Both the position numbers and the translations under genes were made by a program. The notes beneath the pieces are model-generated. The model saw nothing but the letters and a program-made list of their open reading frames with translations, did not search any database and was not told the DNA's origin. From an uncultured Planctomycetota bacterium (lineage in GTDB: Bacteria; Planctomycetota; UBA11346): a DNA stretch of 64,000 bases. Each line of letters opens with the position of its first letter. Positions within the stretch are counted from its first letter, which is position 1. Location of the stretch: positions 8,199 through 72,198 of the forward strand of contig CAIUVD010000091.1 in assembly GCA_903902515.1 (NCBI GenBank), in the 5' to 3' direction. Shown piece after piece: positions 698 to 63,404 of this stretch.

Positions 698-1345
698 TCA
701 CATCCTCGCCGCGGTCGCGGCACGCAGGGGATACAGCAGGGCTACGACCAGCAGGACAGCAGGTAGGAGCCACGGGGACAAGGGCGCGGCCACCGGAGCC
801 GAAATCAGCACTCCCATGAGGCACATGGTCATGCCTGCCATCCAGGCCCAGGTCACCCGCTGGGCATCGGTCGCCGGCTCACCACGTCGGAACAGGAGCC
901 AGGATTGGCGGCGACCGAGCAGCCACGCGACCAGCAGCTGCGGACTCGACGCCAGCAAAACGGCCAGGAAAACGTTCCCCCTGAGTCCAACGAGCACCAA
1001 CCAGGGCCTCACCGACCTTATTATCCTGTCATGAAGGGTCTCGCATGAGACCGTCAGGGCTACGAACAGATCGTGGGATTTTTCCTTGGCCTTATCCGGC
1101 AATGGCGTGGATTCTCGCCGCCTGGCCCAAGCTTGCGCAAAGGCTTGCTGACCCGGGCAGGCCATCGCAAAGGCCACCTCCGCCGAAATGGACCGTTCCA
1201 CTGCGTCATCTGGTAGCCCACATAGCCTCCGACCCTCGGGCAGCGCCATCACGATCCCGGCCATGAGGCCGACCAGGAGGAAAGACAGCGAATAGAGGCA
1301 TAGCCTCAACAGATACACGGCTTCGGTCATGGCTAGCGATCCCAA
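698..1345 (-). CDS. Hypothetical polytopic membrane protein (about 4 TM) between relaxase and T4CP genes
   Basis: 215-aa ORF with several long hydrophobic stretches. Tightly packed: overlaps relaxase stop and ends 3 nt before the T4CP start. Start may be the internal Met (MTEAVYLL, about 1330). Confidence 0.4.
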   Translation of the reverse strand: MGSLAMTEAVYLLRLCLYSLSFLLVGLMAGIVMALPEGRRLCGLPDDAVERSISAEVAFAMACPGQQAFAQAWARRRESTPLPDKAKEKSHDLFVALTVSCETLHDRIIRSVRPWLVLVGLRGNVFLAVLLASSPQLLVAWLLGRRQSWLLFRRGEPATDAQRVTWAWMAGMTMCLMGVLISAPVAAPLSPWLLPAVLLVVALLYPLRAATAARM

Positions 1346-2226
1346 TGCGGGTGATGGTTTCGGTGGCGCTCGTTTTGAGGTACTTCCAGCCGTCCGAGGT
1401 CATCATGGCCCTTGAACCCAAGGCGATCAGCACGCCAGCGCTCACCGTTGGACTTGCCGATATAATACCGAGGCCTTCCGCAGTTAGAGTGCTCGCGATA
1501 CAGGCAGAGCCCTGATTCAGCGAGGGCACTGGCATAGCCCTCGACGGACAGCTGGGTCGGAGGAAGTCCATCGAGGATAACCCGAGCATCCCGAGCGACT
1601 GTGTCTTTAACGGTCACCCGATCCCGTTGATGAGCCACATACCCCGTCCGGTCGGTAGGCCGAATACGAGGGCGAGATGGCTGGTGTTCACGATCTGGCA
1701 ATGACGCCAAGCCGAACCTACGTTCGAGATCTCGATCGATGCCGGGGGCGGCACGATGGCTGTGCTTGGCATGGTAGACATAGCCATCTCTGTTAACCCG
1801 AATGGCCACCAGGTGGTCGTGTGGATTGGCCTTCCCGTCTGCCGCCCGATGAGCGACCACCACAAAATCCCATTGGTCGACATCTGGCTTGGGGAAGGGA
1901 TCCAAGCCTCGCTTAACTCGTTGTTTGTTGAGCTTGGCCCAGTCGTCCTCCAGGTGGCTGCGCATGACCTCGCGGGCGACCTCGCCGCGGCGCTCTGCCG
2001 TCAGGCCCGCGTCCATGTCAGCCTGCTGGTAACTGATCGACCAATGCAGCACTGGATGGGAGAGGTGGGCAGCTGCGGCACGACTGGCAGCGAACTCCCG
2101 AGCCAATTCCCGGGCACTCCTCCCGCTCATCGTGCCGCCCACAATTTCCGGGGCCTGATCCTTCCTAAAACAGTAGTCCAGGAGCTGCCTAACACTCTTC
2201 CCGCCTCGATGCTGCTTGGTGATCAT
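1333..2226 (-). CDS. Relaxase / mobilization nuclease (MobA/VirD2-type, Relaxase family)
   Basis: N-term MITKQHRGGKSVRQLLDYCFRK is a typical relaxase start. NPHDHLVAIRVNRDG fits the relaxase HxDxxxHxH-type metal-binding motif. Start chosen at MITKQ (2226), overlapping the mobC stop; the longer ORF in the track (to 2238) is probably an over-extension. Confidence 0.7.
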   Translation of the reverse strand: MITKQHRGGKSVRQLLDYCFRKDQAPEIVGGTMSGRSARELAREFAASRAAAAHLSHPVLHWSISYQQADMDAGLTAERRGEVAREVMRSHLEDDWAKLNKQRVKRGLDPFPKPDVDQWDFVVVAHRAADGKANPHDHLVAIRVNRDGYVYHAKHSHRAAPGIDRDLERRFGLASLPDREHQPSRPRIRPTDRTGYVAHQRDRVTVKDTVARDARVILDGLPPTQLSVEGYASALAESGLCLYREHSNCGRPRYYIGKSNGERWRADRLGFKGHDDLGRLEVPQNERHRNHHPHWDR

Positions 2227-2669
2227 CAGACATCCCAAGATCCCGGTTTTTCTGAAGGATGGGGCTTGGGTTGCAAGACCGCCTCGACCTGCGCAGGGAT
2301 GCCGGCGAATCGGTCCGTGAAGGGTTGGCCAGGATCCTGGCCGACCAGTCTTCGGCGCAGTTGGATCACAGCCCGGGAGGCCTCGCGCACGGTCTCCCAG
2401 TCGGCTTCGTGACCCTGTCCCCCGTTGATGCGCTTGAGGGCCTGATTGAGGTTCGCCCCGATCCCCCTGAGCTGGGCGTTCGTGTCCTGGTCAATCCGGG
2501 CCGGGGGCGGGCTGACCTGGACCTCGAACACAACATCGCGAATCCAGGCACCGAGCGTGGCGTAGCCCGCTATAGCAGCCTTGGTATTAAGGTCGGCCAG
2601 CTCAGCGTCATTGACACCGAAGCCGGCGGTTTTCTTGCGGGGATTTCGGTCACGAACGATACGGGGCAT
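2226..2669 (-). CDS. mobC: MobC-family relaxosome accessory protein
   Basis: 147 aa, LRGIGANLNQALKRIN is the conserved MobC motif; lies immediately upstream of the relaxase gene on the same strand. Confidence 0.7.
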   Translation of the reverse strand: MPRIVRDRNPRKKTAGFGVNDAELADLNTKAAIAGYATLGAWIRDVVFEVQVSPPPARIDQDTNAQLRGIGANLNQALKRINGGQGHEADWETVREASRAVIQLRRRLVGQDPGQPFTDRFAGIPAQVEAVLQPKPHPSEKPGSWDV

Positions 2670-2840
2670 CTGTCAAAGGCCTGCAATGAACCAGCGCTGG
2701 TACTGCCACCGCTGGTTGGGGGTGATCGAGCCGGGGAATTTGCTCAACCAGGGGGATGCAAGGGGCGGCGAAGCCCCCTTGCCAAGCGCACCGACAAGCA
2801 GAGCCGTTAGGCTTAAGCTTGAGCGGTGCACAGCTTGCTC

Positions 2841-2997
2841 GCCTTCACGACGACGCCTGACCACTCGACCGGTCTGGACGCGCGGTGGCGTAGCGACGGC
2901 AGCCCACGACAGGCGCCTTTGGCGCATGCCGTGGGCTGCCGAGCGGAGACACCGCTGCGGACAGGACGGGAGAGTGGTCAGGCGTCGTCGTGAAGGC
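2841..2997. repeat. Large nested palindrome: perfect 26-bp arms (2841-2866 / 2972-2997) enclosing a perfect 12-bp inverted repeat (2897-2908 / 2930-2941) on the same centre (~2919). Candidate oriT or cruciform
   Basis: GCCTTCACGACGACGCCTGACCACTC and its exact reverse complement GAGTGGTCAGGCGTCGTCGTGAAGGC; inner CGGCAGCCCACG / CGTGGGCTGCCG around GGCGCCTTTGGCGC; directly upstream of mobC. Confidence 0.4.
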
Positions 2998-3037
2998 AGC
3001 CTACCCGTTGCCGTTGCCTGGAGCTTGAGCCGAACGC

Positions 3038-3385
3038 TCATGGCGCTTGATCATCGAGCTGAGGTGCGCGTTGCGGTGACGGCAACTGCGGCCCATCGTC
3101 CAATCCGGTGATGACAACAGGCTCGTCATCACCGGATTTTGCTGGACGAATTCTCGTGGATATCCACCGAGCAACGTAAGCCAGGGACTCAGCCTGCGAA
3201 ACGGCCTCAGCGAGGATCTCATCGTGCTGCTGCCGTCGCCGCTGTCCCAATGACTGCTGCGCACTGGCGAGATCTTTGGCCAGACCTGCAGACAGGGTGT
3301 TGATCAGGCCGAGCGCTACGCCGATGGTTGCGCGAGTGCCAGGGATGTCAGGAGCCAGAACGGCGCGAAGGATGGACGGTCGCAT
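3038..3385 (-). CDS. Hypothetical protein downstream of the integrase (possible recombination directionality or regulatory factor)
   Basis: 115-aa ORF, island-like codon usage (lower GC3 than chromosomal genes), no recognisable motif. Confidence 0.3.
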   Translation of the reverse strand: MRPSILRAVLAPDIPGTRATIGVALGLINTLSAGLAKDLASAQQSLGQRRRQQHDEILAEAVSQAESLAYVARWISTRIRPAKSGDDEPVVITGLDDGPQLPSPQRAPQLDDQAP

Positions 3386-3466
3386 AATGGCTGCCTAGCC
3401 TATGACCGGCTCAGACTCTCGCTGATCATTTTAGACTTCCCGTGACTTCCCCAGACTTCTTAAGGA

Positions 3467-4645
3467 TTAAGCCGTCGCCACTACCTCCTGGATTGGCTGC
3501 CGCTGAGCTGCACTTGCCGGCGCTAATTGACGCAAAATGAATGCCCCCCGCGGCCACTCTGAGACCGCGTGACGAAAGATCATTTGCTGACGAGAGTAAC
3601 CTTGGGTCGTCAACAACGACTCATGTCCGGCCCACGCAGCGACCTGGATAGCGTTGACGTCGGCGGCAAGCAGCATGGAAATCCAGGTGTGCCTTGTGCT
3701 ATGAGGAGTTCGGCCTTGAGGATCTACTCCACAGCGCTTCAGATACGACTTAAAGCGGAGTCCATGGCGCTTCCCGTCACAGTCACGGTCGTCGGGATCC
3801 GCCGCAATAAAGCCCGACAGCTTTGCGCGAGCACGGAGGATCTCAGCCAACTCCTCCTGTAGGGGAAGGAACCGCTCTTTGCCTCGTTTCAGTTTATAGA
3901 CCCCTGGTTGATGGCAGACCTCAATAACCTTGGCCTCCCAACGGATATCAGACCAGCGCAGGTGCATCGCCTCACCAATCCGACATCCCGTGTATGCGAG
4001 CAAGGCAAAACGCAGGAAATAGGGATCGGACTCTCGATCGCGTGCCAGAAGAGCCCGCAACTCGTCCACATTGAAGACGGCTTTATTCTTCTGAATCACC
4101 GTTGTCCGCTTGATGCCCGCGATCGGATTGAAGGTCAGACGCCTTGTGTTGATAGCATGGCGGACCACCGAACGAATCTCCTGGAGCCAACGATTGCGCG
4201 TGTGAGCCGTTACGGTCAGCACATCGATCCGGTCTTCGGCAAAAGTCTTGCCCGAATCAAGGAACCGGCGGACCAGGGACGGGAAGATCGGAGACTTCAT
4301 GTCCCTAGCCCCAAGGTCTGCAAGGGCCTGGATCAGGCGCTCGTGCTCGCGGACGTAGGGCTCTGAGCGTTGTGCCGACCTCAAATTTTCGACCAGTTCC
4401 ATTCCGACCGTGCGCCAGTCGGCATCTGTGGCCGAATCCAACCCAGTCGTGAAACGGGCACTGGTCATCTGGCCCCAGCGGCGGGCATCGGCTATCTGCC
4501 CATCTGCAAAGGAACGGCTCACCCGCCGATTGGTCGTGGGATCCCGAACCTGGACTTCATAGCGAGCCCCTTCCCGAATTCCGCGTTTTTTCCAGATGTC
4601 CCGGATAATGACGCCTCGGATTCCTGAGTTGGCGAGCTTGGGCAT
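3467..4645 (-). CDS. int: Tyrosine site-specific integrase (phage integrase family)
   Basis: LLAYTGCRIGE (catalytic Arg box I) and HSTRHTW (box II His-x-x-Arg) plus the C-terminal Tyr region. True start taken as MPKLANSG (4645). The longer ORF in the track runs through the att repeat (DLGLEPRT reads a tRNA T-arm) and is an artefact. Confidence 0.85.
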   Translation of the reverse strand: MPKLANSGIRGVIIRDIWKKRGIREGARYEVQVRDPTTNRRVSRSFADGQIADARRWGQMTSARFTTGLDSATDADWRTVGMELVENLRSAQRSEPYVREHERLIQALADLGARDMKSPIFPSLVRRFLDSGKTFAEDRIDVLTVTAHTRNRWLQEIRSVVRHAINTRRLTFNPIAGIKRTTVIQKNKAVFNVDELRALLARDRESDPYFLRFALLAYTGCRIGEAMHLRWSDIRWEAKVIEVCHQPGVYKLKRGKERFLPLQEELAEILRARAKLSGFIAADPDDRDCDGKRHGLRFKSYLKRCGVDPQGRTPHSTRHTWISMLLAADVNAIQVAAWAGHESLLTTQGYSRQQMIFRHAVSEWPRGAFILRQLAPASAAQRQPIQEVVATA

Positions 4646-4847
4646 GGGATCGTCCTTAAGGGTAGGGCCGTGGATAGGCCGTGGATAGCTCAGTGTCCCA
4701 CCATAGACCACCATCCCGAGGAATTTCTGAGGTCCGCTCGGGATCGCAGCCAGTGGGGGCCGTCGGCCATTATAGCCGACTGAACAATGACTTAACGTCA
4801 TTTTATCGATCCTCAGCGATCCCCTGCAATCCCCCGTGTCGTGAATT

Positions 4848-4890
4848 CTTAATCCCTGGGTCCTAGGTTCGAGTCCTAGATCGCGCACCA
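4848..4890 (+). repeat. att-like repeat copy 1: tRNA 3'-end-like fragment (T-stem CTAGG/CCTAG, T-loop TTCGAGT, 7-nt acceptor 3' strand, discriminator A, CCA). No 5' half present
   Basis: CTTAATCCCTGGGTCCTAGGTTCGAGTCCTAGATCGcgcacca. No complementary acceptor 5' strand (GCGCGAT) within 90 nt upstream, so not a complete tRNA. 34/36 identical to 15164-15199. Confidence 0.6.
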
Positions 4891-5144: not shown

Positions 5145-5855
5145 TTATACTTCACCAAGCGCGTTCAGCCGCTTCTTACGATCTTCCCAATCCGGCATTA
5201 ATCGCTGCAATAATCGCCAAAATTTTGGTGAATGGTTGTGTTCTGCGAGATGGCAGAGCTCATGCATCACCACGTAGTCGATGCACTCGCGGGAGGCCTT
5301 GAGGAGCTCCAGATTGAGAATGATCCGACCAGCCGGGGTGCAACTCCCCCAGCGGTGGGTCATGCGACGGACGAGCAGGGTGGGGAGAGGGATGCCTTCC
5401 ACTGCTGCCAGTCGATGGCAAGCCTTCAAGCGCTCTGCGAACACCTCTCCAGCTCGATCTGCATACCACGTCCGCACCAGGTGGCCGAGAACGGCCGGAG
5501 ACGGGTGATCGGGCGTCGTGACGTCCAAATACCCGCGCCGCAGAACAACTCCCGCGATCGGCCCGGGAATGGCCCGCAGGCGGTATTGCCGCCCCAGGTA
5601 ACGGTGCGTTTCGCCCGGGACATACTCCCGGGGAGACTGAAGGGGGTGGAAACACTCAAATTCACGCCACGCCTGCCGGATCCACGCACCCCGCTTGCAG
5701 ACTTTGGCCCGGATGCGCTCCAACGGTGTTCCGATGGGCGCGGTCACCTCGACGGCCAGGTCGGGCCGGACCGTGATGGCGAGGGTCTTGGCCGGTCCAA
5801 ACCGGTAATGGTAGGGGATCTCGGTAGAGCCCCAGACCACGCGATCGGCCAGCAT
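5145..5855 (-). CDS. M48-family / DUF45 (YgjP-like) zinc metallopeptidase of the kind commonly linked to type I R-M loci
   Basis: HELCHLAEHNH (HExxH) near the C-terminus. N-term IPYHYRFGPAKTLAITVRPDLAVEVTAP resembles YgjP/DUF45. Start at MLADRV (5855) overlaps the hsdR stop (5857). Confidence 0.7.
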   Translation of the reverse strand: MLADRVVWGSTEIPYHYRFGPAKTLAITVRPDLAVEVTAPIGTPLERIRAKVCKRGAWIRQAWREFECFHPLQSPREYVPGETHRYLGRQYRLRAIPGPIAGVVLRRGYLDVTTPDHPSPAVLGHLVRTWYADRAGEVFAERLKACHRLAAVEGIPLPTLLVRRMTHRWGSCTPAGRIILNLELLKASRECIDYVVMHELCHLAEHNHSPKFWRLLQRLMPDWEDRKKRLNALGEV

Positions 5856-5856
5856 C

Positions 5857-8800
5857 TCAGCCTCCCGCCTGCTTCTTGAGGGTGGACACCACCTGCGCCA
5901 AGAGCTGGTCGATCTCGGCCGTCGTCCAACCGATCCCATGTGCTGAGCGCAGGTCAAACAGGGCATCATCGACCGCATTCTCGACGTCCTTGATCAGGTC
6001 TGGACTGTGGACCCAGTCGACGATGCGAACCTTGGGTTGCACCCGCTCCTCGATCTCCAAGGCGAGCGTTGATGCGAGTTGGCGAAGGTCGACCCCGCTC
6101 CCCACCTCTTGGGCGCGGCTCTTGGTAACCTCAACCTGCTCCAGAGCGGTCCCCATCAGGCCGAAGAACGCTCGTGCAGCCCGGTGGCGTTCACCTTCCA
6201 ACTCAATCGGTAGCTCGTCCGCGTGCCCTTGGCGCACCTGGGCGAGGTAGACCTCAACCTTCTTCAGGTATTCCAGTTCACTGATGCGTTCATGGCGGTA
6301 ATCGTCAATGGTTTGTTGCACCAACTTAGCAAAACGACCGTAAAATTCTTCGTCCTCCCCCATCTTCTCGCGGCAGGTTTTGGCCAGTCGGCTGGCGATG
6401 GTGTCAGCCTTCGACGCCGCGCTCTCGTGGGTCGCCACTTCTTGGTCCATTGCCTTCACGTCGAAGAGGCTGAATTCCGGGGTGATGATCTTCACCTCTG
6501 GAGCCTGAATGTGGTCGTCCAACAGCTTGCGGATTTGTTTTTCGTATTGGCTGTAGTCCACCCGGTCGCCGTACCTGCTCTGGACCGAGGTTCGCAGGCC
6601 GATGAAGCGCTTGAAATCCCGTTTAAAAACCTCCAGCCGTTCGCGCGGCACCAGGGCGTAGACCTGCTCGGATGCCAGGGCCGTGGCTAGGGTCTTTTGG
6701 AAGGTCCGCAGGGTCGCGTAGAAGGACTCTCGGCGATCCTCAGGTGCAAGGTGCCGCTCCATTGCTTCATTGTCGAGCTGGTTGCAGACCTCTTTGAAGA
6801 TCGCCCAGACATCGCTGTGGTGCTGTGGCAGGTCGGCGATCACCGAGCTGACGTCAGTCACCGCCCCGCCCAGGTCGACGTCGTTCTGATCGAAGCCCGC
6901 CAGGGCATCGTATGTCTTCATCGAGGCGTTGAGCTCACCAAGCACCCCACGGTAGTCCACGATCAGGCCATGATCCTTGCCCGGGAACAGCCGGTTCACG
7001 CGTGCGATCGCCTGGAGGATGTTGTGCTCCTTGAGCGGCTTATCGATGTACAGCACGGCATTACGCGGCTCATCGAACCCGGTCAGCAACTTGTCGACCA
7101 CGATCAAGATCTCGACGTCGCTGTCTTCCTGCCCGAAGGCGGCCTTGAGCTGGCGGTTGTAGACATCCTCCGTCTTGAACCGCTTCATCATCTCGGCCCA
7201 GAACTGGCCAACCAGGGATTCATCCTCTTCGACCGCCTCGTCCTCGCCCCGAACATCCGGGGCAGACATGATCACTTCCGCCTGCACGAGGCCGAATTCC
7301 TGCATGAATTTCCGGTAGCGGATGGCGCTGGTGCGGTTGCGTGCGGCGACCTGGCCCTTGAGCCCGCGCCCCTGGAAGTTGGCTTTGAAGTGGGTGCTGA
7401 TGTCGAAGGCGATCAGCTTGATGCGTTGTTCGGCTTCACTCAGCACCTCGCGCCGCGACATCGTGCGCTTGAGGTCTGCCCGCTGCTTCTCGCTCAGGCT
7501 CGTGGTCAATCGCTCGAACCACTGATCCAGGGCCCGCTCGTTCTGCTCCAGCAAGGCCATCCGTCCCTCGTACACGAGGGGTGCCACGGCCTCGTCATCG
7601 ACGGCCTGACGCATGGTGTAGCTGTGGATGAAGCCGCCAAATTTCTGTGCGGTCTGCTTTTCCTTCTTCAGGAGAGGGGTGCCGGTGAAGGCGATGTAGC
7701 ACGCATTGGGGAACACCCGTCGCATCTTGGCGGCAAAGCCCCCATAGTTCGACCGGTGGCCTTCATCGATCATCACGAAGATGTTCGGGCTCTCATCCCG
7801 GGCCTGATTCTTGTCCATGACCGCCGCGAACTTGTTAATGATCGCGGTGATGACGCTGGCCTTGCCCTCGGTGATGAGCTTGGCCAGGTGCTCGCCCGTC
7901 CGTGCCCGTTCCGTGGTTTTGCCGCAGGCCTCAAAGGTTCGCGACAACTGAATGTCGAGGTCGTCGCGGTCGGTAACCAGCACCACACGTGGGTCGGTGA
8001 TGCCAGGGTGCAGGGCGATCGCCTTGGCCAGCATGACCATGGTTAGCGATTTTCCGGACCCCGTCGTGTGCCAGACGACCCCGCCCTCGCGTGCGCCCTC
8101 GTGGAGCGTGGTCACGCGGGCGACCGTCGCCGCCACGGCGAACCACTGCTGGTACCGGGCGACCTTGCGCACCCCAGCATCGAACACCACGGCGTCGCGG
8201 ATGAACGTCACCAAGCGATCTTGGCGCAGCATGGCCCAGAGCGTGCGGTCCTGCTCGGTTGGCAGGCGATCACCGGCCTTGGCCCGTTCCTGCCACCAGA
8301 GCCGCGCCTCACGGTAGGCGTCCACTCGCTTGGAATCGGGAGGCGCGAAGAGCTTGGCCTCGACGTCATCGGGCAGCCGCTGGTTGGCAGAGGCATGGAC
8401 CGCCTGCTCGTGCCGTCCCTCTTCCTTCCAGACGCTCCAGAATTTCAGCGGCGTCCCCACCGTGCCATAGCGGCAGGAATTCACGCTCGTCCCCAGCACC
8501 AGTTGCGCGAATTGGAAGAGGTGGGGGATGTGATCGTCCTTCTGATAGGTCACGACCTGCTTGATGGCCTTCTCGATGGCCTTGTCCCCAACGTCGCCGT
8601 CCTGGTCGCGACGTTTACATTCGATGACCACCACGGGGATGCCGTTGATGAACAGCACCAGATCAGGTCGGCAGGTCTCGTGGGAGCGCGACCGCTCGAC
8701 GGCGAACTCATCGCTGACGTGGTAGACGTTGCGCTCCGGCCGCAGCCAATCGATGAAGTGCACCTGCCGACCCTTGCGGTCGCCCTCCACTTCAACGTCG

Positions 8801-9117
8801 ACGCTCGTCCCCAGGGTGAGCAGGTGGTACACCGCCTCGTTGGTCCGCACCAAGCCGTCATACGGCACCTCGGTCAGTCGACGGATGGCCTCCCCCAGGT
8901 TCACATCCGAGAACGGCAGCGACTGCCCACGAGCCTCCACCCGGTTGTGCTCTGCCAGCCAGGGCTTCAGCACCCCGGTCAACACTACCTGGTCTTGCCG
9001 GCCTCCACGCAGGGCCAAGGCCTCTTCCCGGCTGAGGTACTGCCAGCCCAAGGCGCAGAGCACCTGCACCGCAGGGATCTGGCTGTCGAGATCTTCGAGG
9101 TAGGGCGAGAGCGCCAT
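5857..9117 (-). CDS. hsdR: Type I restriction enzyme R subunit
   Basis: 1086 aa, SF2 helicase motifs TTGSGKSLTMV (Walker A) and FVMIDEGHRS (DEAH-like); size and architecture typical of HsdR. Confidence 0.9.
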   Translation of the reverse strand: MALSPYLEDLDSQIPAVQVLCALGWQYLSREEALALRGGRQDQVVLTGVLKPWLAEHNRVEARGQSLPFSDVNLGEAIRRLTEVPYDGLVRTNEAVYHLLTLGTSVDVEVEGDRKGRQVHFIDWLRPERNVYHVSDEFAVERSRSHETCRPDLVLFINGIPVVVIECKRRDQDGDVGDKAIEKAIKQVVTYQKDDHIPHLFQFAQLVLGTSVNSCRYGTVGTPLKFWSVWKEEGRHEQAVHASANQRLPDDVEAKLFAPPDSKRVDAYREARLWWQERAKAGDRLPTEQDRTLWAMLRQDRLVTFIRDAVVFDAGVRKVARYQQWFAVAATVARVTTLHEGAREGGVVWHTTGSGKSLTMVMLAKAIALHPGITDPRVVLVTDRDDLDIQLSRTFEACGKTTERARTGEHLAKLITEGKASVITAIINKFAAVMDKNQARDESPNIFVMIDEGHRSNYGGFAAKMRRVFPNACYIAFTGTPLLKKEKQTAQKFGGFIHSYTMRQAVDDEAVAPLVYEGRMALLEQNERALDQWFERLTTSLSEKQRADLKRTMSRREVLSEAEQRIKLIAFDISTHFKANFQGRGLKGQVAARNRTSAIRYRKFMQEFGLVQAEVIMSAPDVRGEDEAVEEDESLVGQFWAEMMKRFKTEDVYNRQLKAAFGQEDSDVEILIVVDKLLTGFDEPRNAVLYIDKPLKEHNILQAIARVNRLFPGKDHGLIVDYRGVLGELNASMKTYDALAGFDQNDVDLGGAVTDVSSVIADLPQHHSDVWAIFKEVCNQLDNEAMERHLAPEDRRESFYATLRTFQKTLATALASEQVYALVPRERLEVFKRDFKRFIGLRTSVQSRYGDRVDYSQYEKQIRKLLDDHIQAPEVKIITPEFSLFDVKAMDQEVATHESAASKADTIASRLAKTCREKMGEDEEFYGRFAKLVQQTIDDYRHERISELEYLKKVEVYLAQVRQGHADELPIELEGERHRAARAFFGLMGTALEQVEVTKSRAQEVGSGVDLRQLASTLALEIEERVQPKVRIVDWVHSPDLIKDVENAVDDALFDLRSAHGIGWTTAEIDQLLAQVVSTLKKQAGG

Positions 9118-9118
9118 G

Positions 9119-10045
9119 TCAGGTCGTCCAGAAGGAGTGCGTACGCCAGTTGGCAGGCAGGCCCATGGCCACCTGCCAGCGCGGGTGGCTGTCCATCTCG
9201 GTCAAAAGCGCCTGTACGCGACCCGACCAATGGCTTCCTGCCTGGTGATGCCGCAGCAGGTAGCGCAGGATCAGCAACACGCCGTACACGTGATGTCGAT
9301 CCGGGAGGGCCGGTGGAATCCAGCACCGCTCTTCGGTCGTCGGGCTGCGGGGGTTGCGCGGTTCGGGCATGGTGGGCTTGATCGCCAAATCCCGATTCCA
9401 CAGCCGCCCATGGTGGGCACAGAGGTTGCGCACGTATGACAGGGTATGCAGCCAGTCACCAAAGACACGGTGGTGCACGCGATACGATCCGGCAACTGCT
9501 CGCTTATCGTCATGGTGCAGGCCACGAAACAGCACCGACAGCGACCCGAGCGACATGACCTCAGACGCCACCCACAGGGGGAGCGACGGGAAGCCGTCGT
9601 AGGTGTTTTCGTAATGGAGGATGAAGGTCTCCTCCGAACGCTCAGCCTCCCGGTGCAGCTTGTCGATCCACTCAGGGTGACGGAACTGCGGGTGGAAGTT
9701 CACGGAGGCTTCGTGCCCGTAGGGGCCGTAGGCGTGCACCAAATGGTAGGTCACCGTGGTGCGCACGGCAATCTCGACCCGTTCGATTGCATCCATGACC
9801 AGCAGGCGGAGACGGCGGTCAAACTCATAGAGCCGCTCCGCCTCTGCCAGGCTTGCGGTGTCTTCGAAGCGATCGCCAGGAACCAGCTTAAACAGCAGCC
9901 AGTAGGCACTGAGGCGGTAATAGCTCACGCGGCTGAGCAATGCCTCGGCCCCTCGCCGGTTGCCCACGTTCAGCCCACGGGCCTCCAGCAGGTCCACCTG
10001 CTGGGCGAAGGTCAGGGCGGTTTTGTTGTAGGGCTTGGTGCTCAT
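9119..10045 (-). CDS. Abi-like protein (Abi_2 / AbiD-AbiF family abortive-infection protein)
   Basis: 308 aa, N-terminal LSRVSYYRLSAYW motif characteristic of the Abi_2 family; ends 2 nt before hsdR start. Confidence 0.7.
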   Translation of the reverse strand: MSTKPYNKTALTFAQQVDLLEARGLNVGNRRGAEALLSRVSYYRLSAYWLLFKLVPGDRFEDTASLAEAERLYEFDRRLRLLVMDAIERVEIAVRTTVTYHLVHAYGPYGHEASVNFHPQFRHPEWIDKLHREAERSEETFILHYENTYDGFPSLPLWVASEVMSLGSLSVLFRGLHHDDKRAVAGSYRVHHRVFGDWLHTLSYVRNLCAHHGRLWNRDLAIKPTMPEPRNPRSPTTEERCWIPPALPDRHHVYGVLLILRYLLRHHQAGSHWSGRVQALLTEMDSHPRWQVAMGLPANWRTHSFWTT

Positions 10046-10068
10046 GCCAGGTTTCCCGGCGTGCGCGT

Positions 10069-10126
10069 AAAAACAAAAAAGCCGCCAAGGTTACGCATGC
10101 CCCTTGCGGGGTATAGGCGTGGCGGC
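10069..10126 (-). terminator. Candidate rho-independent terminator between hsdS and abi (minus strand): GC stem GCCGCCA/TGGCGGC with inner CCCC-gcaa-GGGG hairpin, then U-run
   Basis: Plus-strand AAAAACAAAAAA (10069-10080) is the minus-strand T-tract directly 3' of the stem 10081-10087/10120-10126. Confidence 0.45.
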
Positions 10127-10328
10127 TGTGTTGGAGGTACGATGCCAGATGCGTGGCTGTCGCGCAACATGGCAAAAAACAACACGCTCTCCCGTATCCG
10201 TGTCTCGATCTGCGACACAAGGAGCTCATCTATGAAGACAGTAATCATGACAGCCCCTGCCTTGGCCAGCCCCCAGGGGCGTGGATCGTAGAAGTTGCCA
10301 AGACAGGCGGACATGGCCATGGGTGCTC

Positions 10329-11597
10329 CTAGGCCGCCTGGACCTTCACGCGGCGTTTGCCGGTGAGGAGCTGTTGCATGAGGCCCTTTTTCTGGGTGCG
10401 AAAAGCGGAGAGCAATCGTTCGAGCAACTCGATTTCCCGATCGACGATGTCAAATAGATCGGCGATGCGCCGTTGTTCGTCTAACTCCGGCAGGGGGATA
10501 GGCAACTGTGCCAGGTCATCAAAATAGATGCGGATGCGCACGCCGCCGGCGCCTGCGGTGTCCATGAATGAAGACCATGCATCCGAACGCCGAAATGCGT
10601 TGAAATAGCGATGGTCGATTGCCTCATCACGGCAGCGGAACACCACATAATCCGGTGAAACGAGCGCATCTTCCTGCCCCAGCCATTGGCAGATAGAGCC
10701 AATGTTGATACGCATTGGATTATAGGCGAACCAGTGATTTTTGACGATCAGGTAGCGGGATAAATCGTCGGCCATGACATGCTCCTTCATGGGGATCATG
10801 CCTTCTGCTTTGTTCACAGCCCTGACGGATTCCGAACCAAGGCGCCCATTATTTCGGACGGAGCTGGCCTCGGCGACGTCGCCGATAGTGCGCTTCCGCC
10901 ACGGCTTGGTAAACCCAGGAAACCTCCGCTTCCCCGTCAGCAACTGCTGCATGAGGCCTTGGCGACGTTTACGCGAGGCCTTCAGGAGATTTTCCAGGTA
11001 AAGCGAGGCAGTCTCCCAGTGCTCAAGAATTCGCGAGATTTCTTGTTGCTCGGAAAAAGAAGGAATTGGGATCCTGAGCGCTAGGAGGTCATCCTGCGTA
11101 ATATTTTTCATAGAATCGCTCGTCCCGGTTGCCTGGGATGAGAGCCGGTGACGAAGTGTCGGCAATTGCAGTAGGTGGGAAAGCCACTTGGTGGAATACT
11201 TGACCCCAGAGCGAGGCTTTAACTGCCAAAGTTTATCGGGAAGATATGTCTTTGGACAGTCCTCTCGCACTAACGCACTAGCGCCGACGAGATCAGGGGT
11301 ATTACAACGGCTGACGATAAGGTGACCCTTGAGCACAGGCTCGCTTACTCGTGCAACATCCTCGGGGATAACGACCTTGGCGGCATTTTTTTTGAACACG
11401 CCGTAAGACACTGCGCTGATCTTCAGGACGGTTATTTCACCTGTGCTTGCTGGCCGATCTTCACCATTAACGCTCACTCCAGAGTCTAGAGAGCCAACAA
11501 GATCAGAAACCTTGCCAGCTTTCCAGTCTGTAGGAACGAGTCCAAGATGCGGCACTTCCTTGAAAGCTGCTGTCACAGCCCCAACTCCTTGAGGCAC
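10329..11597 (-). CDS. hsdS: Type I R-M specificity subunit, two target-recognition domains
   Basis: 422 aa with the conserved inter-TRD repeats RQGLMQQLLTGKRR and KKGLMQQLLTGKRR. Confidence 0.85.
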   Translation of the reverse strand: MPQGVGAVTAAFKEVPHLGLVPTDWKAGKVSDLVGSLDSGVSVNGEDRPASTGEITVLKISAVSYGVFKKNAAKVVIPEDVARVSEPVLKGHLIVSRCNTPDLVGASALVREDCPKTYLPDKLWQLKPRSGVKYSTKWLSHLLQLPTLRHRLSSQATGTSDSMKNITQDDLLALRIPIPSFSEQQEISRILEHWETASLYLENLLKASRKRRQGLMQQLLTGKRRFPGFTKPWRKRTIGDVAEASSVRNNGRLGSESVRAVNKAEGMIPMKEHVMADDLSRYLIVKNHWFAYNPMRINIGSICQWLGQEDALVSPDYVVFRCRDEAIDHRYFNAFRRSDAWSSFMDTAGAGGVRIRIYFDDLAQLPIPLPELDEQRRIADLFDIVDREIELLERLLSAFRTQKKGLMQQLLTGKRRVKVQAA

Positions 11598-13072
11598 CCA
11601 GCCATCTCCGCCCGGACCTTAACCAATTCCGCCTCTAAATCAGCGATTTCCTTACCTACCTTGGCCAAATCCACCTCTTCCTCAGCCTCGAATGTGTCCA
11701 CATACCGGGGAATATTGAGGTTGTAATCGTTCTCGGCGATCTCTTCCAGCGTCGCCTTGTAGGCGTACTTCTCGACCGTCTTGCGGATGCGGTAGGTCTC
11801 AACGACCTTCTGGACCTCGACGTTGACCCGCAGGTAATTCTGGTTTTTCCCATCCTGGAACTCGCGGGAGGCGTCGATGAACAGCACATCCTTCCGGCTG
11901 CCACGATCACGGCGGAAGATCAGGATGGCCGCTGGGATTCCGGTACCGAAGAACAGGTTCGGAGGCAGGCCGATCACCGCATCCAGGAGGTTCTCCTCGA
12001 TCAGCTTTTGCCGAATCGCGCCTTCGGCCCCGCCGCGGAACAGCACGCCATGGGGCACGACCACACCAACCCGTCCGGTGTCCTTCACCGTGGTCTCGAT
12101 CATATGGCTAATGAAGGCGTAGTCGCCCTTGCTCTTGGGGGGCACGCCCCGGTGCCAGCGGTTGAATCGCTTGGCCTCATCGTCCGCCTTGTCCGCCCCC
12201 CACTTGTCGAGGCTGAACGGCGGATTGGCCACCACGACGTCGAAGCGCATGAGTTGGTCGTTGGCCAAGAGCTGGGGCTCCAGCAGGGTGTCCCCGGCCT
12301 CGATGCGGGCATTCGCCACATCGTGCAAGAACATGTTCATCATGCACAACGCCCAGGTCGTGCGGTTGTTCTCCTGACCCCAGATCGAGATGTTGTCGGA
12401 ATTAGCCTCGCGGGCGCAGCGCAGCAGCAGCGAGCCCGAGCCGCACGCCGGGTCGCAGATGCGCTCGCCAGCCTTGGGTGCCAGCAGCTTGGCCAGGAGG
12501 ATCGAGACCTCCTTCGGGGTGTAGAATTCCCCGGCCTTTTTACCGGCGTCGTCGGCGAACTTGCCGATGAGGAATTCGTAGGAGTCGCCGATGACGTCGT
12601 TGCCCGCCAGTCGCGAGGGACGCAGGTCGAGCTTGTTGAAGTCCTCCAGGAGGTTTTTTAGCACCTTGTTGCGATTCTTGGTCGATCCCAGGCGGGATTC
12701 GCTGTTGAAGTCAACGTTGCGGAAGACGTCCTTGAGTTTGACTTTGTTGGCCAGTTCGATGGCTTCTAAGGCCTTGTTGATCGTCTCGCCAACGCTGGCC
12801 CCTTCGCGCAGGGCATAGACCTCGGCAAAGCTGGATTTCTCGGGCAGAACGAAGCGCTCACGGTCCATCTTGCGACGGATGCGCTCCTCATCGCCCTTGA
12901 ACTCCTTGGCGAGCTCGTCGCGGCGCTCGCGCCACACGTCACTAATATACTTCACGAACAGCATCGTGAGCACGTAGTCCTTGTAGTCGGCCGCATCGAT
13001 CTGGCCGCGAAAGGAGTCGCAGGCCTGCCAGAGGATACGATTGACGTCGTCTTGGGTGGTGGTGTCGGTCAT
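11573..13072 (-). CDS. hsdM: Type I R-M N6-adenine DNA methyltransferase subunit
   Basis: DPACGSGSLL (SAM motif I) and VVANPPF (motif IV NPPF). Confidence 0.9.
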   Translation of the reverse strand: MTDTTTQDDVNRILWQACDSFRGQIDAADYKDYVLTMLFVKYISDVWRERRDELAKEFKGDEERIRRKMDRERFVLPEKSSFAEVYALREGASVGETINKALEAIELANKVKLKDVFRNVDFNSESRLGSTKNRNKVLKNLLEDFNKLDLRPSRLAGNDVIGDSYEFLIGKFADDAGKKAGEFYTPKEVSILLAKLLAPKAGERICDPACGSGSLLLRCAREANSDNISIWGQENNRTTWALCMMNMFLHDVANARIEAGDTLLEPQLLANDQLMRFDVVVANPPFSLDKWGADKADDEAKRFNRWHRGVPPKSKGDYAFISHMIETTVKDTGRVGVVVPHGVLFRGGAEGAIRQKLIEENLLDAVIGLPPNLFFGTGIPAAILIFRRDRGSRKDVLFIDASREFQDGKNQNYLRVNVEVQKVVETYRIRKTVEKYAYKATLEEIAENDYNLNIPRYVDTFEAEEEVDLAKVGKEIADLEAELVKVRAEMAGCLKELGL

Positions 13073-18738: not shown

Positions 18739-18815
18739 TGGAGCGGGCGAAGAGACTCGAACTCTCGACCTACTGCATGGCAAGCAGTCGCTCTAGCCAA
18801 CTGAGCTACGCCCGC
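18739..18815 (-). tRNA. tRNA-Gly (anticodon GCC)
   Basis: Minus-strand read GCGGGCG-TA-GCTC-AGTTGGCTA-GAGC-G-ACTGC-TTGCCAT-GCAGT-AGGTC-GAGAG-TTCGAGT-CTCTT-CGCCCGC-T-CCA folds into a canonical cloverleaf; anticodon loop TTGCCAT. Confidence 0.9.
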
Positions 18816-42146: not shown

Positions 42147-42314
42147 TCTTGGGCTGGCAGGTGGCCTCAGTCACCTGCCGCCCCCCCTGGGACCGCGCGC
42201 CGCTGGCGCGCTCGAAATGCTGAATCTCCGCAAGCGGGCCAGCGGCCCGCGGTCCCAGGGACGATGCTGAATGCTCGGTAACCCCCAACGGCGGCCCGGT
42301 GGGTCGCGCCTCCC

Positions 42315-63233: not shown

Positions 63234-63404
63234 TCGGTTACGAGCTCCTGCCACACCAGCACCTCCCGGGATTCCCGGGAGGTGCTGGTGTTTTCGGACC
63301 CCGCAGGCCGAAATCCGGTTACCGGGAGGCCGATTTTGGTCCTCAGTTATTGACAGGGCAGGACTTCCACGCTTAGTGCCGCGCTTCCGCGAGGAGCGCC
63401 GCCC

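What the first reader, a model, noticed from the sequence alone, without database searches (positions are those of the whole stretch)
2841..2997. 157-bp nested perfect palindrome upstream of mobC: candidate oriT
Perfect 26-bp arms (2841-2866 / 2972-2997) enclose a perfect 12-bp inverted repeat (2897-2908 / 2930-2941) around GGCGCCTTTGGCGC, all on one centre (~2919), with partial complementarity in between. It lies exactly where oriT is expected, in the intergenic region directly 5' of the mobC-relaxase operon. A structure this large and this perfect in ~60% GC DNA is not chance.
Basis: seen in the sequence. Interest (0 to 1): 0.55.

Follow-up and report, generated by a model that had tools for sequence, protein, structure and literature searches.

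The report
Conserved long DNA hairpin beside oriT
The 157-bp palindrome is real and is kept, by matched changes in both arms, in every known relative of a small, undescribed family of mobilizable genomic islands, where it sits directly beside the probable transfer origin; it most likely folds as single-stranded DNA during transfer rather than carrying the nick site itself.

Summary
Observation confirmed exactly: perfect 26-nt arms, a nested perfect 12-nt repeat, one centre at 2919. The stem extends to 2837-3000 (HP1, 164 nt).

Genes lie on the minus strand: int, orf115, HP1, a 95-bp near-invariant block, then mobC, relaxase, orf215 and a T4CP. This is an integrative mobilizable element ending at a tRNA-like fragment.

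Seven distinct relatives, all metagenomic (relaxase 56-76% identical), carry a hairpin of the same size and position with different arm sequences. 32 of 59 pairs show compensatory double changes and 92.7% of cells pair.

There is almost no G-T intermediate, so the constraint acts on DNA, not RNA. HP1 is not coding, not an intrinsic terminator, and matches no Rfam family.

The apical loop is not conserved, so the nick is unlikely to lie there. The adjacent block (2748-2843) has the usual layout of small hairpin plus conserved single-stranded tail and is the better nic candidate.

Unpaired bases are 76% pyrimidine on the gene-sense strand in all seven loci, which implies a strand-specific role.

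Best reading: a single-stranded-DNA hairpin module of the oriT region, most likely an sso/ssi-like second-strand initiation signal. The main rival is a relaxase recognition or termination hairpin.

This is a new variant of a known kind, of moderate interest.

The parts
2837..3000 (.). HP1: the full hairpin-forming palindrome (164 nt).
   Evidence: RNAalifold and pair counts on 7 distinct loci: 59 pairs, 92.7% of cells paired, 32 pairs with changes on both sides. DNA folds.
2841..2866 (.). Outer left arm, perfect 26 nt.
   Evidence: Exact reverse complement of 2972-2997. Unique in the window.
2972..2997 (.). Outer right arm, perfect 26 nt.
2897..2941 (.). Inner stem-loop. It has perfect 12-nt arms (2897-2908 / 2930-2941) and an apical stem GGCGCC/GGCGC around a TTT loop (2918-2920). 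The loop sequence is not conserved in relatives.
   Evidence: In the alignment the apical loops read AAA, GTA, GTT, TTT or none, and the apical stem covaries in L022.
2748..2843 (-). Near-invariant non-coding block abutting HP1, and the probable relaxosome/nic region. On the minus strand it reads GCGAGCAAGCTGTG, then HP2, then HP3, then the tail ATCCCCCTGG.
   Evidence: The compared 110-nt stretch from 2839 down to 2730, which contains this block, is 76-95% identical between loci. HP1 is 66-92% and the next 65 nt 51-80%. Alignment.
2786..2831 (-). HP2: small hairpin (stem GTGCACCG / CGGTGCGC) with a conserved loop carrying YAAGCY repeats.
   Evidence: Three compensatory stem changes in the partial relative L023, read by eye from the sequence.
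2758..2782 (-). HP3: 8-bp hairpin GCAAGGGG / CCCCTTGC.
   Evidence: Sequence-conserved. It carries a G-T wobble on the minus strand in 6 of 7 loci.
2748..2757 (-). Conserved tail ATCCCCCTGG directly 3' of HP3. It is the best nic candidate by geometry only, with a loose resemblance to the MOBP nic YATCCTG|Y.
   Evidence: Alignment. Geometry rule and RP4 nic sequence from PMC4814116. This is inference, not a mapped nick.
2689..2717 (.). HP4: a small inverted repeat just upstream of the mobC start. A repeat of different sequence sits here in each of the four relatives folded. Possible operator.
2226..2669 (-). mobC: NikA/MobC-like ribbon-helix-helix relaxosome accessory protein (147 aa).
   Evidence: PF21983 at 5.9e-08 and PF05713 at 4.2e-05.
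1333..2226 (-). Relaxase (297 aa from MITKQ...), a divergent member of the MobA/VirD2 superfamily with MOBP-type distant relatives.
   Evidence: PF03432 at 7.7e-09. Alignment A1..
698..1345 (-). orf215: conserved protein of unknown function between the relaxase and the T4CP. The T4CP gene runs off the window start.
   Evidence: T4CP domains in the identical contig L001.
3038..3385 (-). orf115: conserved small protein of unknown function directly upstream of HP1.
   Evidence: 57-71% identical in six relatives. No Pfam or NCBIfam match.
3467..4645 (-). Tyrosine integrase (392 aa; the true start is MPKLANSG...).
   Evidence: PF00589 at 2.7e-19. Start fixed by alignment A3.
4843..4890 (+). 48-nt tRNA 3'-end-like fragment (GGTTCGAGTCC T-loop, ...GCGCACCA) next to int. 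Probable att repeat and right end of the element.
   Evidence: Sequence. Conserved next to int in L005, L011 and L013. ARAGORN finds no full tRNA here.

Best explanation
HP1 (2837-3000) is a cis-acting DNA hairpin module belonging to the transfer-origin region of an integrative mobilizable element. The element's order is int, orf115, HP1, conserved block, mobC, relaxase, orf215, T4CP.

Proposed mechanism:
1. The relaxase, helped by the NikA/MobC-like protein, nicks in the neighbouring near-invariant block (2748-2843), not inside HP1.
2. When the strand is unwound for transfer, or for rolling-circle copying of the excised element, HP1 snaps into a ~160-nt imperfect hairpin.
3. The hairpin's conserved internal loops are then displayed.
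4. I think the hairpin most likely serves as the signal for starting the complementary strand, as a single-strand origin or ssi-type priming site. Double-stranded DNA is needed before the integrase can act.

What is shown: the structure, its conservation by covariation, its DNA-level (not RNA-level) character, its strand asymmetry, and its position beside the most conserved non-coding block.

What is inferred: that it folds as single-stranded DNA in vivo, which strand is used, the nick position, and the priming role.

My confidence that it is a functional single-strand hairpin module of the oriT region is about 0.7. My confidence in the specific priming role is about 0.4.
For: 1. Covariation. 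Seven distinct loci keep a hairpin of the same size and place while the arms are only 66-76% identical in all pairs but the close L005/L020 (92%).
   - 92.7% of cells pair, against 78.1% in shuffles.
   - 32 of 59 pairs have changes on both sides, against 16.6 in shuffles (0 of 500 shuffles reach it).
   - Slid controls pair at only 27-45%.
2. DNA rather than RNA. Only 3 of the 59 pairs show any one-sided (wobble) change. G-T cells (7) equal A-C cells (7) among 371 variable-stem cells.
3. Conserved islands sit at internal loops and at the stem base. Examples are CCTGTCCGCAGYGG and CCGTCGCTTCGCCACCRCGCGTYCAGA. The apical loop is free to vary.
4. Strand asymmetry in all 7 loci.
   - Unpaired bases on the gene-sense strand are 226 pyrimidines to 71 purines.
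   - Lineage-specific mismatches are pyrimidine-pyrimidine in about 14 events against 2 purine-purine events.
   - The plus-strand fold is 4-19 kcal/mol more stable.
   - A site bound only as a symmetric duplex would not predict this.
5. Size and style match known single-strand origins.
   - ssoA is a ~160-nt structure primed by RNA polymerase and works in one orientation only (PMC5703833).
   - sso function depends on structure more than on sequence (PMC4595007).
   - An IME mobilization module of oriT-mob-ssoA is known (PMC5090054).
6. HP1 directly abuts the putative nic block. No Pfam family, primase included, matched mobC, relaxase, orf115 or orf215 beyond those named. The identical contig L001 shows only T4CP domains in the gene beyond orf215.
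Against: - No experiment exists. Nothing shows that it is ever single-stranded or primes synthesis.
- There is no sequence similarity to known sso or ssi elements. No CS-6-like TAGCGT sits in the apical loop.
- No sigma-70-like -35/-10 was found.
- The strand signals conflict. HP1 is more stable on the plus strand, yet the conserved G-T wobbles of HP2 and HP3, and the best nic-like tail, are on the minus strand.
- The invariant stem base runs straight into the invariant block. That fits relaxase contact as well as it fits priming.
- Palindromes can also be kept symmetrical by template-switch mutation, which inflates the count of apparent compensatory changes.
- Stability varies widely among relatives (-40 to -84 kcal/mol).
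- The sample is small: 7 loci, two of them close.
Confidence: 0.4

Rival explanations
1. HP1 is the relaxase's own recognition or termination hairpin, that is, oriT in the strict sense. The relaxase binds the invariant stem base. It nicks within about 10 nt of that base, either on the minus strand about 8 nt 3' of HP1 (AAGCTGTG|CACC, near 2829) or on the plus strand at CAGCTTG|CT (2837|2838). It then uses the refolded hairpin to rejoin the strand in the recipient.
For: - The stem base (GCTGCC / GGC-AGC) is invariant and runs into the 14-27-nt invariant linker.
- Conjugative nic sites lie 3' of a hairpin with an 8-nt U-turn (PMC4814116).
- CAGCTTG|C matches the MOBP consensus YATCCTG|Y at 6 of 8 positions by my own comparison.
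- HP1 sits upstream of the relaxase operon.
Against: - Known recognition repeats have arms of about 6-19 nt, and nothing explains 70 or more maintained pairs.
- The arms vary freely, although the relaxases are 56-76% identical.
- HP2 and HP3 already supply canonical small hairpins with conserved sequence.
- The nearest MOBP plasmid relatives have only 11-17-nt repeats.
Confidence: 0.25
2. HP1 is a single-stranded-DNA promoter of the Frpo/ssi kind. Folded on the transferred strand, it rebuilds a duplex promoter, so RNA polymerase transcribes the mob operon (or makes a primer) before the complementary strand exists.
For: - It is a large hairpin directly upstream of an operon.
- The window copy folds at -80 to -84 kcal/mol, below the -75 kcal/mol cut-off used to mine such promoters (PMC12672017).
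- The plus strand, which is the template for mobC, gives the more stable fold in 7 of 7 loci.
Against: - No -35/-10 pair was found by scan or by eye in the conserved islands.
- The stretch where a -10 would fall is variable.
- Several relatives fold only at -40 to -54 kcal/mol.
- Early expression of mob genes gives no obvious benefit.
- If nic lies between HP1 and mobC, the template is interrupted until the strand is recircularized.
Confidence: 0.08
3. HP1 acts as RNA. It could be a processing or stabilizing hairpin in the int-orf115-mobC transcript, or a small RNA needed for mobilization, as in SGI1.
For: - It lies between co-oriented genes, so it is probably transcribed.
- The RNA fold is very stable at -75 to -136 kcal/mol.
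- There is a precedent: an essential sRNA is encoded between mpsA and oriT of SGI1 (PMC9299015).
Against: - G-U pairs are not favoured over A-C on either strand (7 against 7) and make up under 2% of cells. Only 3 of the 59 pairs show a one-sided change, which is unlike structured RNAs.
- No Rfam family matches; the best hit is 23 bits against a 90-bit threshold.
- There is no promoter or terminator signal.
Confidence: 0.07
4. HP1 is a duplex or cruciform regulatory site. It could be an operator for orf115, MobC or the integrase, or a supercoil-driven cruciform that helps melt the nearby nic region.
For: - The near-perfect centre would allow cruciform extrusion.
- AAGCT motifs flank both ends of HP1 and recur in HP2.
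- Equal G-T and A-C counts fit a need for both hairpins to form.
Against: - A symmetric duplex or cruciform role does not predict the strong pyrimidine/purine strand asymmetry.
- Protein operators do not need 59 maintained base pairs with freely varying sequence.
Confidence: 0.07
5. HP1 is something ordinary: a protein-coding ORF (2673-3041, minus strand, 122 aa), an intrinsic terminator, a folded att site, or a selfish palindromic insertion.
For: - An ORF with an ATGA overlap to orf115 spans the palindrome.
- Public gene calls annotate 135-138-aa ORFs there in L005 and L011.
- A tyrosine recombinase gene is nearby.
Against: - The reading frame is not kept. There are shifts between the two halves and in-frame stops in L013, L017 and L022.
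- There is no T-run after the stem.
- Gene order is conserved on both sides, and the real att-like tRNA fragment lies 1.9 kb away.
- The arms occur nowhere else in the window.
Confidence: 0.03

Closest known systems
Single-strand origins of rolling-circle plasmids and ICEs/IMEs (ssoA, ssoU, ssoT; ICEBs1 sso1; the ssoA of IMESag-rpsI)
   Same: - About 160-nt imperfect palindrome.
- Structure is conserved more than sequence, with small conserved islands.
- It sits in the same module as the nick site and relaxase gene.
- It is needed only on the displaced or transferred strand (PMC5703833, PMC4595007, PMC5090054).
   Different: - No sequence similarity, and no CS-6-type motif in the apical loop.
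- Known examples come from Firmicutes, whereas this host is an unknown high-GC uncultured bacterium.
- Activity and orientation dependence are untested.
- Here the hairpin directly abuts the nic block.
Canonical relaxase oriT repeat plus nic (RP4, R64, R1162, R388)
   Same: - It lies upstream of a ribbon-helix-helix accessory gene and a relaxase gene.
- A hairpin is followed by conserved sequence.
- It is conserved within the family (PMC4814116).
   Different: - Known arms are about 6-19 nt, against about 80 nt here, which are nested and have conserved internal loops.
- There is no exact YATCCTG|Y.
- The smaller hairpins HP2 and HP3 fit this model better than the palindrome does.
Frpo / ssi single-stranded-DNA promoters of F, ColIb-P9 and pESBL leading regions
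   Same: A large hairpin (below -75 kcal/mol in the window copy) immediately upstream of an operon on a conjugatively transferred element (PMC12672017).
   Different: - No rebuilt -35/-10.
- It is next to the mob operon rather than next to anti-defence or establishment genes.
- The transferred strand is unknown.
pAD1 oriT2 (Enterococcus), which I recall as a large ~140-bp inverted repeat beside short direct repeats. This is from memory and was not checked here.
   Same: A very large inverted repeat within a functional oriT.
   Different: - The relaxase family and host are unrelated.
- I recall the pAD1 nick as lying within the repeat.
- No comparison was run.
SGI1 sgm-sRNA, encoded between mpsA and oriT
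   Same: A structured non-coding element in the mobilization module of an integrative mobilizable element, essential besides oriT and the Mob proteins (PMC9299015).
   Different: That one acts as RNA. The HP1 substitution pattern is Watson-Crick only, which is DNA-like.
Folded single-stranded recombination sites (integron attC, CTX phage attP)
   Same: Imperfect palindromes of 60-150 nt whose structure, not sequence, is conserved, used as single-stranded DNA by tyrosine recombinases (from my own knowledge).
   Different: - HP1 is internal to the element, with conserved genes on both sides.
- It has no R/L-box-like GTT cores.
- The element has a normal tRNA-type att fragment elsewhere.

Membership tests
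Conjugative oriT (MOBP-type relaxase nic region) | Lies beside the cognate relaxase and accessory-protein genes. | tested here: met
   It is 172 nt upstream of the NikA/MobC-like gene, which is followed by a PF03432 relaxase. A T4CP lies downstream.
Conjugative oriT (MOBP-type relaxase nic region) | A short inverted repeat 5' of a sequence-conserved nic, about 8 nt away. | tested here: inconclusive
   The geometry is present for HP3 plus ATCCCCCTGG and for the HP1/HP2 linker. The palindrome itself is about 10 times too long. No nick has been mapped.
Conjugative oriT (MOBP-type relaxase nic region) | Match to the MOBP nic consensus YATCCTG|Y (RP4 CTATCCTG/CCC). | tested here: not met
   No exact match in 2700-3010. 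The best are CAGCTTGC (6 of 8, plus strand) and CATCCCCC (5 of 8, minus strand), by inspection.
Conjugative oriT (MOBP-type relaxase nic region) | Relaxase-dependent nicking and mobilization in cis. | not testable with these tools
   Needs mating assays and nick mapping.
Single-strand origin (ssoA-like) or ssi | An imperfect palindrome of about 150-300 nt that folds as single-stranded DNA, with structure conserved over sequence. | tested here: met
   164 nt, -40 to -84 kcal/mol across 7 loci, 32 covarying pairs.
Single-strand origin (ssoA-like) or ssi | Conserved RSB and CS-6 (TAGCGT in the terminal loop) motifs. | tested here: not met
   Apical loops are AAA, GTA, GTT, TTT or none. The single TAGCGA at 2889-2894 (plus strand) is not conserved in relatives. 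RSB was not compared.
Single-strand origin (ssoA-like) or ssi | Works on one strand and in one orientation only. | tested here: inconclusive
   The strands are clearly unequal (226 pyrimidines to 71 purines unpaired; the plus-strand fold is stronger in 7 of 7). The active strand and activity are unknown.
Single-strand origin (ssoA-like) or ssi | Primes complementary-strand synthesis by RNA polymerase or primase. | not testable with these tools
   Needs single-stranded DNA accumulation or M13 ori-deletion assays.
Frpo-type single-stranded-DNA promoter | The hairpin rebuilds -35 and -10 boxes in its stem. | tested here: not met
   The promoter scan found none in 2500-3500. The conserved islands hold only weak xGGACA hexamers, with a variable stretch where a -10 would fall.
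Intrinsic (Rho-independent) terminator | A short GC-rich stem-loop followed by a T-run. | tested here: not met
   0 sites on either strand in 2500-3500.
Known structured RNA family (Rfam) | Reaches a family's gathering score. | tested here: not met
   Only the tRNA-Gly is found in the whole window. In 2600-3100 the best hit is mir-9209 at 23 bits against a 90-bit threshold.
Protein-coding gene (ORF 2673-3041, minus strand) | Reading frame and peptide conserved in relatives. | tested here: not met
   Frame shifts and in-frame stops in L013, L017 and L022.
Folded att site (attC / CTX attP type) | Sits at the element or cassette boundary and is split or variable in context. | tested here: not met
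   Gene order int-orf115-HP1-mobC is conserved. A tRNA-like att fragment lies at 4843-4890.

The most novel reading that the evidence does not exclude
HP1 defines a new class of single-strand-active DNA element fused to an origin of transfer. It would be a ~160-nt hairpin with conserved pyrimidine-rich internal loops that recruits host priming or transcription machinery, or the element's own orphan relaxase, on the transferred strand. It occurs in a previously undescribed family of tRNA-integrating mobilizable islands. Their relaxase forms an isolated clade seen only in metagenomes.
Probability: 0.35. Interest if true: 0.65.

Novelty: new variant of a known kind. Interest (0 to 1): 0.5.

Why it matters
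How mobilizable islands without a primase convert the incoming single strand into double-stranded DNA is poorly known outside Firmicutes. That conversion must happen before integration.

A covarying, strand-asymmetric 160-nt hairpin welded to the nic region gives a concrete, easily cloned candidate for this step. It comes from an element family with a very divergent MOBP-like relaxase, which could extend oriT and relaxase catalogues.

There are also two practical points:
- The palindrome breaks metagenome assemblies; five of the contigs fetched end in it or at its edge.
- It seeds false gene calls: 135-138-aa ORFs, and 188- and 227-aa 'MobC' extensions.

If it proves to be only an oversized relaxase repeat, the interest is modest.

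Tried and rejected
- **Coding ORF across the palindrome.** Rejected: the frame is not conserved and relatives carry stops.
- **Intrinsic terminator or sigma-70 promoter.** None found.
- **Rfam families.** None.
- **Repeat family or MITE.** The arms are unique in the window.
- **DNA similarity to plasmids.** No match.
- **Relaxase relatives in 185,579 reference genomes.** None by protein patterns, and none by the conserved 23-mer.
- **Metagenome scan with the 23-mer.** Gave only 3 loci. Two were identical to L017 and one, L020, was new.
- **Viral-contig scans.** Three 17-mer hits proved to be chance matches and the second motif gave none.
- **Profile search for more relaxase relatives.** Returned the same 7 proteins.
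- **PDB sequence search with the relaxase profile.** No hit.
- **Nick in the apical loop, as in pMV158 or Rep proteins.** Rejected because the loop is not conserved.
- **Folded att site.** Rejected on conserved gene order and a separate tRNA-like att fragment.
- **Deciding the transferred strand from mismatch types.** Failed: HP1 favours the plus strand, while the HP2 and HP3 wobbles favour the minus strand.
- **Large hairpin upstream of int that could act as a single-stranded-DNA promoter.** None found.
- **Host taxonomy.** Not determined.
Full report
**1. The observation**

The sequence is exactly as described.
- 2841-2866 and 2972-2997 are perfect reverse complements (26 nt).
- 2897-2908 and 2930-2941 are perfect reverse complements (12 nt).
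- Both share the centre 2919, around GGCGCC-TTT-GGCGC.
- 57 of 78 mirrored positions pair.

The repeats extend to 41 nt at 85% (outer) and 21 nt at 90% (inner).

It is far beyond chance.
- The arm occurs nowhere else in the 64-kb window with up to 3 mismatches allowed, and 0 were expected.
- Either strand folds at -83 to -85 kcal/mol, against about -45 for shuffles (z about -11 to -12).
- It is the longest inverted repeat in the window.

It is not an assembly artefact. Four independent metagenome contigs are identical to the window (0 mismatches). All of them stop at 2824 or 2900-2902, which is at or inside the palindrome.

**2. Context**

All relevant genes are on the minus strand.

| Feature | Coordinates | Evidence |
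|---|---|---|
| Tyrosine integrase | 3467-4645 | PF00589; true start fixed by alignment |
| orf115, conserved, unknown function | 3038-3385 | |
| Palindrome | 2841-2997 | |
| NikA/MobC-like protein | 2226-2669 | PF21983, PF05713 |
| Relaxase | 1333-2226 | PF03432 |
| orf215 | 698-1345 | |
| T4CP | runs off the window start | seen whole in the identical contig L001 |

A 48-nt fragment that looks like a tRNA 3' end lies at 4843-4890, next to int. It has a GGTTCGAGTCC T-loop and ends in ...GCGCACCA. It is conserved next to int in three relatives, although no full tRNA is called there.

So this is an integrative mobilizable element. Its right end is near 4890, and the palindrome sits about 1.9 kb inside it, 172 nt upstream of mobC.

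**3. Relatives**

The relaxase family is tiny.
- Only seven homologues were found (58-77% by BLASTP, 56-76% in alignment A1), all from metagenomes.
- Representative genomes of 185,579 species gave none, by protein patterns or by a conserved 23-mer.
- In a library of 1.84 billion representatives, the family is a single 50% cluster. The next full-length relatives score about 1e-19.
- Eight of the ten distant relatives tested match MOBP-type NCBIfam models, all far below the curated cut-offs: TraI/MobA(P), Bacteroides MobB, MbpB, MobP3.
- The closest plasmid proteins are 26-28% identical, from MOBP-typed Nostoc and Tolypothrix plasmids.
- No solved structure matches by sequence.

Contigs carrying the homologues, plus a metagenome scan with the conserved 23-mer, gave seven distinct sequences of the region including the window, and one partial sequence.

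**4. The hairpin is conserved as a structure, not as a sequence**

Every relative has a hairpin of about 160 nt at the same place. In the alignment, arm sequences are only 66-76% identical between loci, apart from the close pair L005/L020 at 92%.

Pair statistics:

| Measure | Observed | Control |
|---|---|---|
| Cells forming a standard pair | 92.7% | 78.1% in shuffles; 27-45% with partners slid |
| Pairs with changes on both sides (of 59) | 32 | 16.6 in shuffles; 0 of 500 shuffles reach 32 |

The comparative structure extends the stem to 2837-3000, with a bulged C2840.

Sequence-conserved islands sit at three kinds of place:
- the stem base (GCTGCC / GGC-AGC);
- the internal loops (CCTGTCCGCAGYGG opposite CCACCRCGCGTYCAGA; TCCGTTG; CCGTCGCTTCGCC);
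- the apical stem.

The apical loop itself varies (AAA, GTA, GTT, TTT or none).

**5. What the substitution pattern says**

Only 3 of the 59 pairs show any one-sided change. Among 371 variable-stem cells, 337 are Watson-Crick, 7 are G-T and 7 are A-C. A structured RNA would tolerate G-U far better than A-C, so the constraint looks DNA-level. No Rfam family matches.

The ORF that spans the palindrome (2673-3041, minus strand) is annotated as a 135-138-aa gene in two relatives. It is not real, because the frame shifts and in-frame stops occur in L013, L017 and L022. No terminator-like or sigma-70-like site exists in 2500-3500.

**6. Strand asymmetry**

The two strands are not equivalent.
- In all seven loci the unpaired bases on the gene-sense (minus) strand are mostly pyrimidines, 226 against 71 in total.
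- Lineage-specific mismatches are pyrimidine-pyrimidine in about 14 separate events, against 2 purine-purine events.
- The plus-strand hairpin is 4-19 kcal/mol more stable in 7 of 7 loci. The same holds with RNA parameters.

A purely symmetric duplex or cruciform role does not predict this. It points to use of one strand.

Which strand remains open. HP1 favours the plus strand. However, the conserved G-T wobbles in the two small neighbouring hairpins, and the best nic-like tail, are on the minus strand. A mutational bias cannot be fully excluded, although the local base skew is small.

**7. The neighbour is the better nic candidate**

Directly next to HP1, towards mobC, lies the most conserved non-coding DNA of the region. 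In the 110-nt stretch compared (2839 down to 2730) identity is 76-95%. The block itself is 2748-2843. Read on the minus strand it contains:
- GCGAGCAAGCTGTG;
- a 46-nt hairpin, HP2, whose stem shows three compensatory changes in the partial relative L023;
- an 8-bp hairpin, HP3;
- the tail ATCCCCCTGG.

Conjugative nic sites lie 3' of a small hairpin after about 8 nt, in conserved sequence. The RP4 nic is CTATCCTG/CCC (PMC4814116).

HP3 plus its tail fits that layout. Two sites at the HP1/HP2 linker fit less well. None matches YATCCTG|Y exactly. These are candidates only.

The variable apical loop of HP1 argues against a nick in the loop.

**8. Mechanism**

I conclude that HP1 is a cis-acting hairpin module of the oriT region that works as single-stranded DNA.

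Its closest analogues in size and style are single-strand origins.
- ssoA is a ~160-nt structure primed by RNA polymerase and is orientation-specific (PMC5703833).
- ICEBs1 carries a functional sso, whose function depends on structure more than on sequence (PMC4595007).
- The streptococcal element IMESag-rpsI has an oriT-mob-ssoA module (PMC5090054).

The element needs double-stranded DNA to integrate. Pfam and NCBIfam gave no match, primase included, for orf115 or orf215.

I therefore favour a second-strand initiation role (about 0.4).

Rivals, with my estimates:
- An oversized relaxase recognition or termination hairpin (0.25). It is supported by the invariant stem base, which merges with the invariant block.
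- A single-stranded-DNA promoter of the Frpo kind (0.08; PMC12672017). It lacks -35/-10 boxes.
- An RNA role like the SGI1 sRNA (0.07; PMC9299015). The substitution pattern does not fit.
- A duplex or cruciform operator (0.07). The strand asymmetry does not fit.
- Ordinary explanations (coding ORF, terminator, att site, selfish insertion) (0.03).

**9. Novelty**

Long hairpins tied to transfer or replication origins are a known kind. This one is a new variant for three reasons:
- it is fused to the nic block;
- it is maintained by extensive covariation, with strand-asymmetric loops;
- it belongs to an undescribed element family with an orphan MOBP-like relaxase clade.

The nearest plasmid relatives have only 11-17-nt repeats upstream of mobC.

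Everything functional remains inference until mobilization, nick mapping and sso assays are done.

Noticed in passing
window 4843-4890 (+), next to int (3467-4645, -): A 48-nt tRNA 3'-end-like fragment (GGTTCGAGTCC T-loop, ...GCGCACCA) is conserved beside int in L005, L011 and L013, with no full tRNA called. It is probably the att repeat and the right end of the element. The long int ORF (to 4906) is an artefact of translating this fragment.
   Followed up: partly
window 698-4890 and loci L001-L024: The element family (int, orf115, HP1, mobC, relaxase, orf210/215, T4CP) was seen only in metagenome contigs. There were no hits in 185,579 reference genomes or in the plasmid collection, and the relaxase is an isolated clade. 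Host taxonomy is unknown.
   Followed up: partly
L001 start (= window 2824); L002-L004 starts (= window 2900-2902); L010 and L023 starts: Independent metagenome assemblies break at or inside the palindrome. Public gene calls place spurious ORFs across it: 135 and 138 aa in L005 and L011, a 143-aa ORF on the opposite strand in L013, and mobC stretched to 227 aa (L017) and 188 aa (L022).
   Followed up: yes
window 2689-2717, and the equivalent spot in L005, L011, L013, L017: In each of these loci the fold shows a small inverted repeat of different sequence just upstream of the mobC start codon. It may be an operator for the ribbon-helix-helix MobC protein.
   Followed up: no
window 2885-2893 (HP1 internal loop) and 2766-2774 (HP3 loop), minus strand: A similar heptamer, CT(T/A/G)CGCC, appears unpaired in both the HP1 internal loop and the HP3 apical loop in most loci. 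In addition, YAAGCY occurs four times: at both bases of HP1 and twice in HP2. These could be protein-recognition motifs or could be chance.
   Followed up: no
L005 9575-12894; L011 12265-12912; L017 6111-7925: Cargo genes next to the T4CP differ between relatives and look defence-related: a 1255-aa SIR2_2 protein, a 2122-aa AAA_16/NPHP3_N protein, and a DUF7380/EMARD_N protein.
   Followed up: no
window 5145-13072 (-): Just outside the element lies a type I restriction-modification cluster with an embedded Abi_2 gene: YgjP-like metallopeptidase (5145-5978), HsdR (5857-9117), Abi_2 (9119-10045), HsdS (10329-11597) and HsdM (11573-13072).
   Followed up: partly
window 3102-3138: A perfect 14-nt inverted repeat (AATCCGGTGATGAC / GTCATCACCGGATT, 9-nt loop) lies inside the 3' part of orf115. 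Its conservation was not checked.
   Followed up: no
window 18739-18815 (-); 63253-63291; 42185-42260: A tRNA-Gly(GCC) is the only full tRNA in the window. Other notable palindromes are a perfect 19-nt repeat with a 1-nt loop at 63253-63291 and 28-nt arms (93%) at 42185-42260. None was examined.
   Followed up: no
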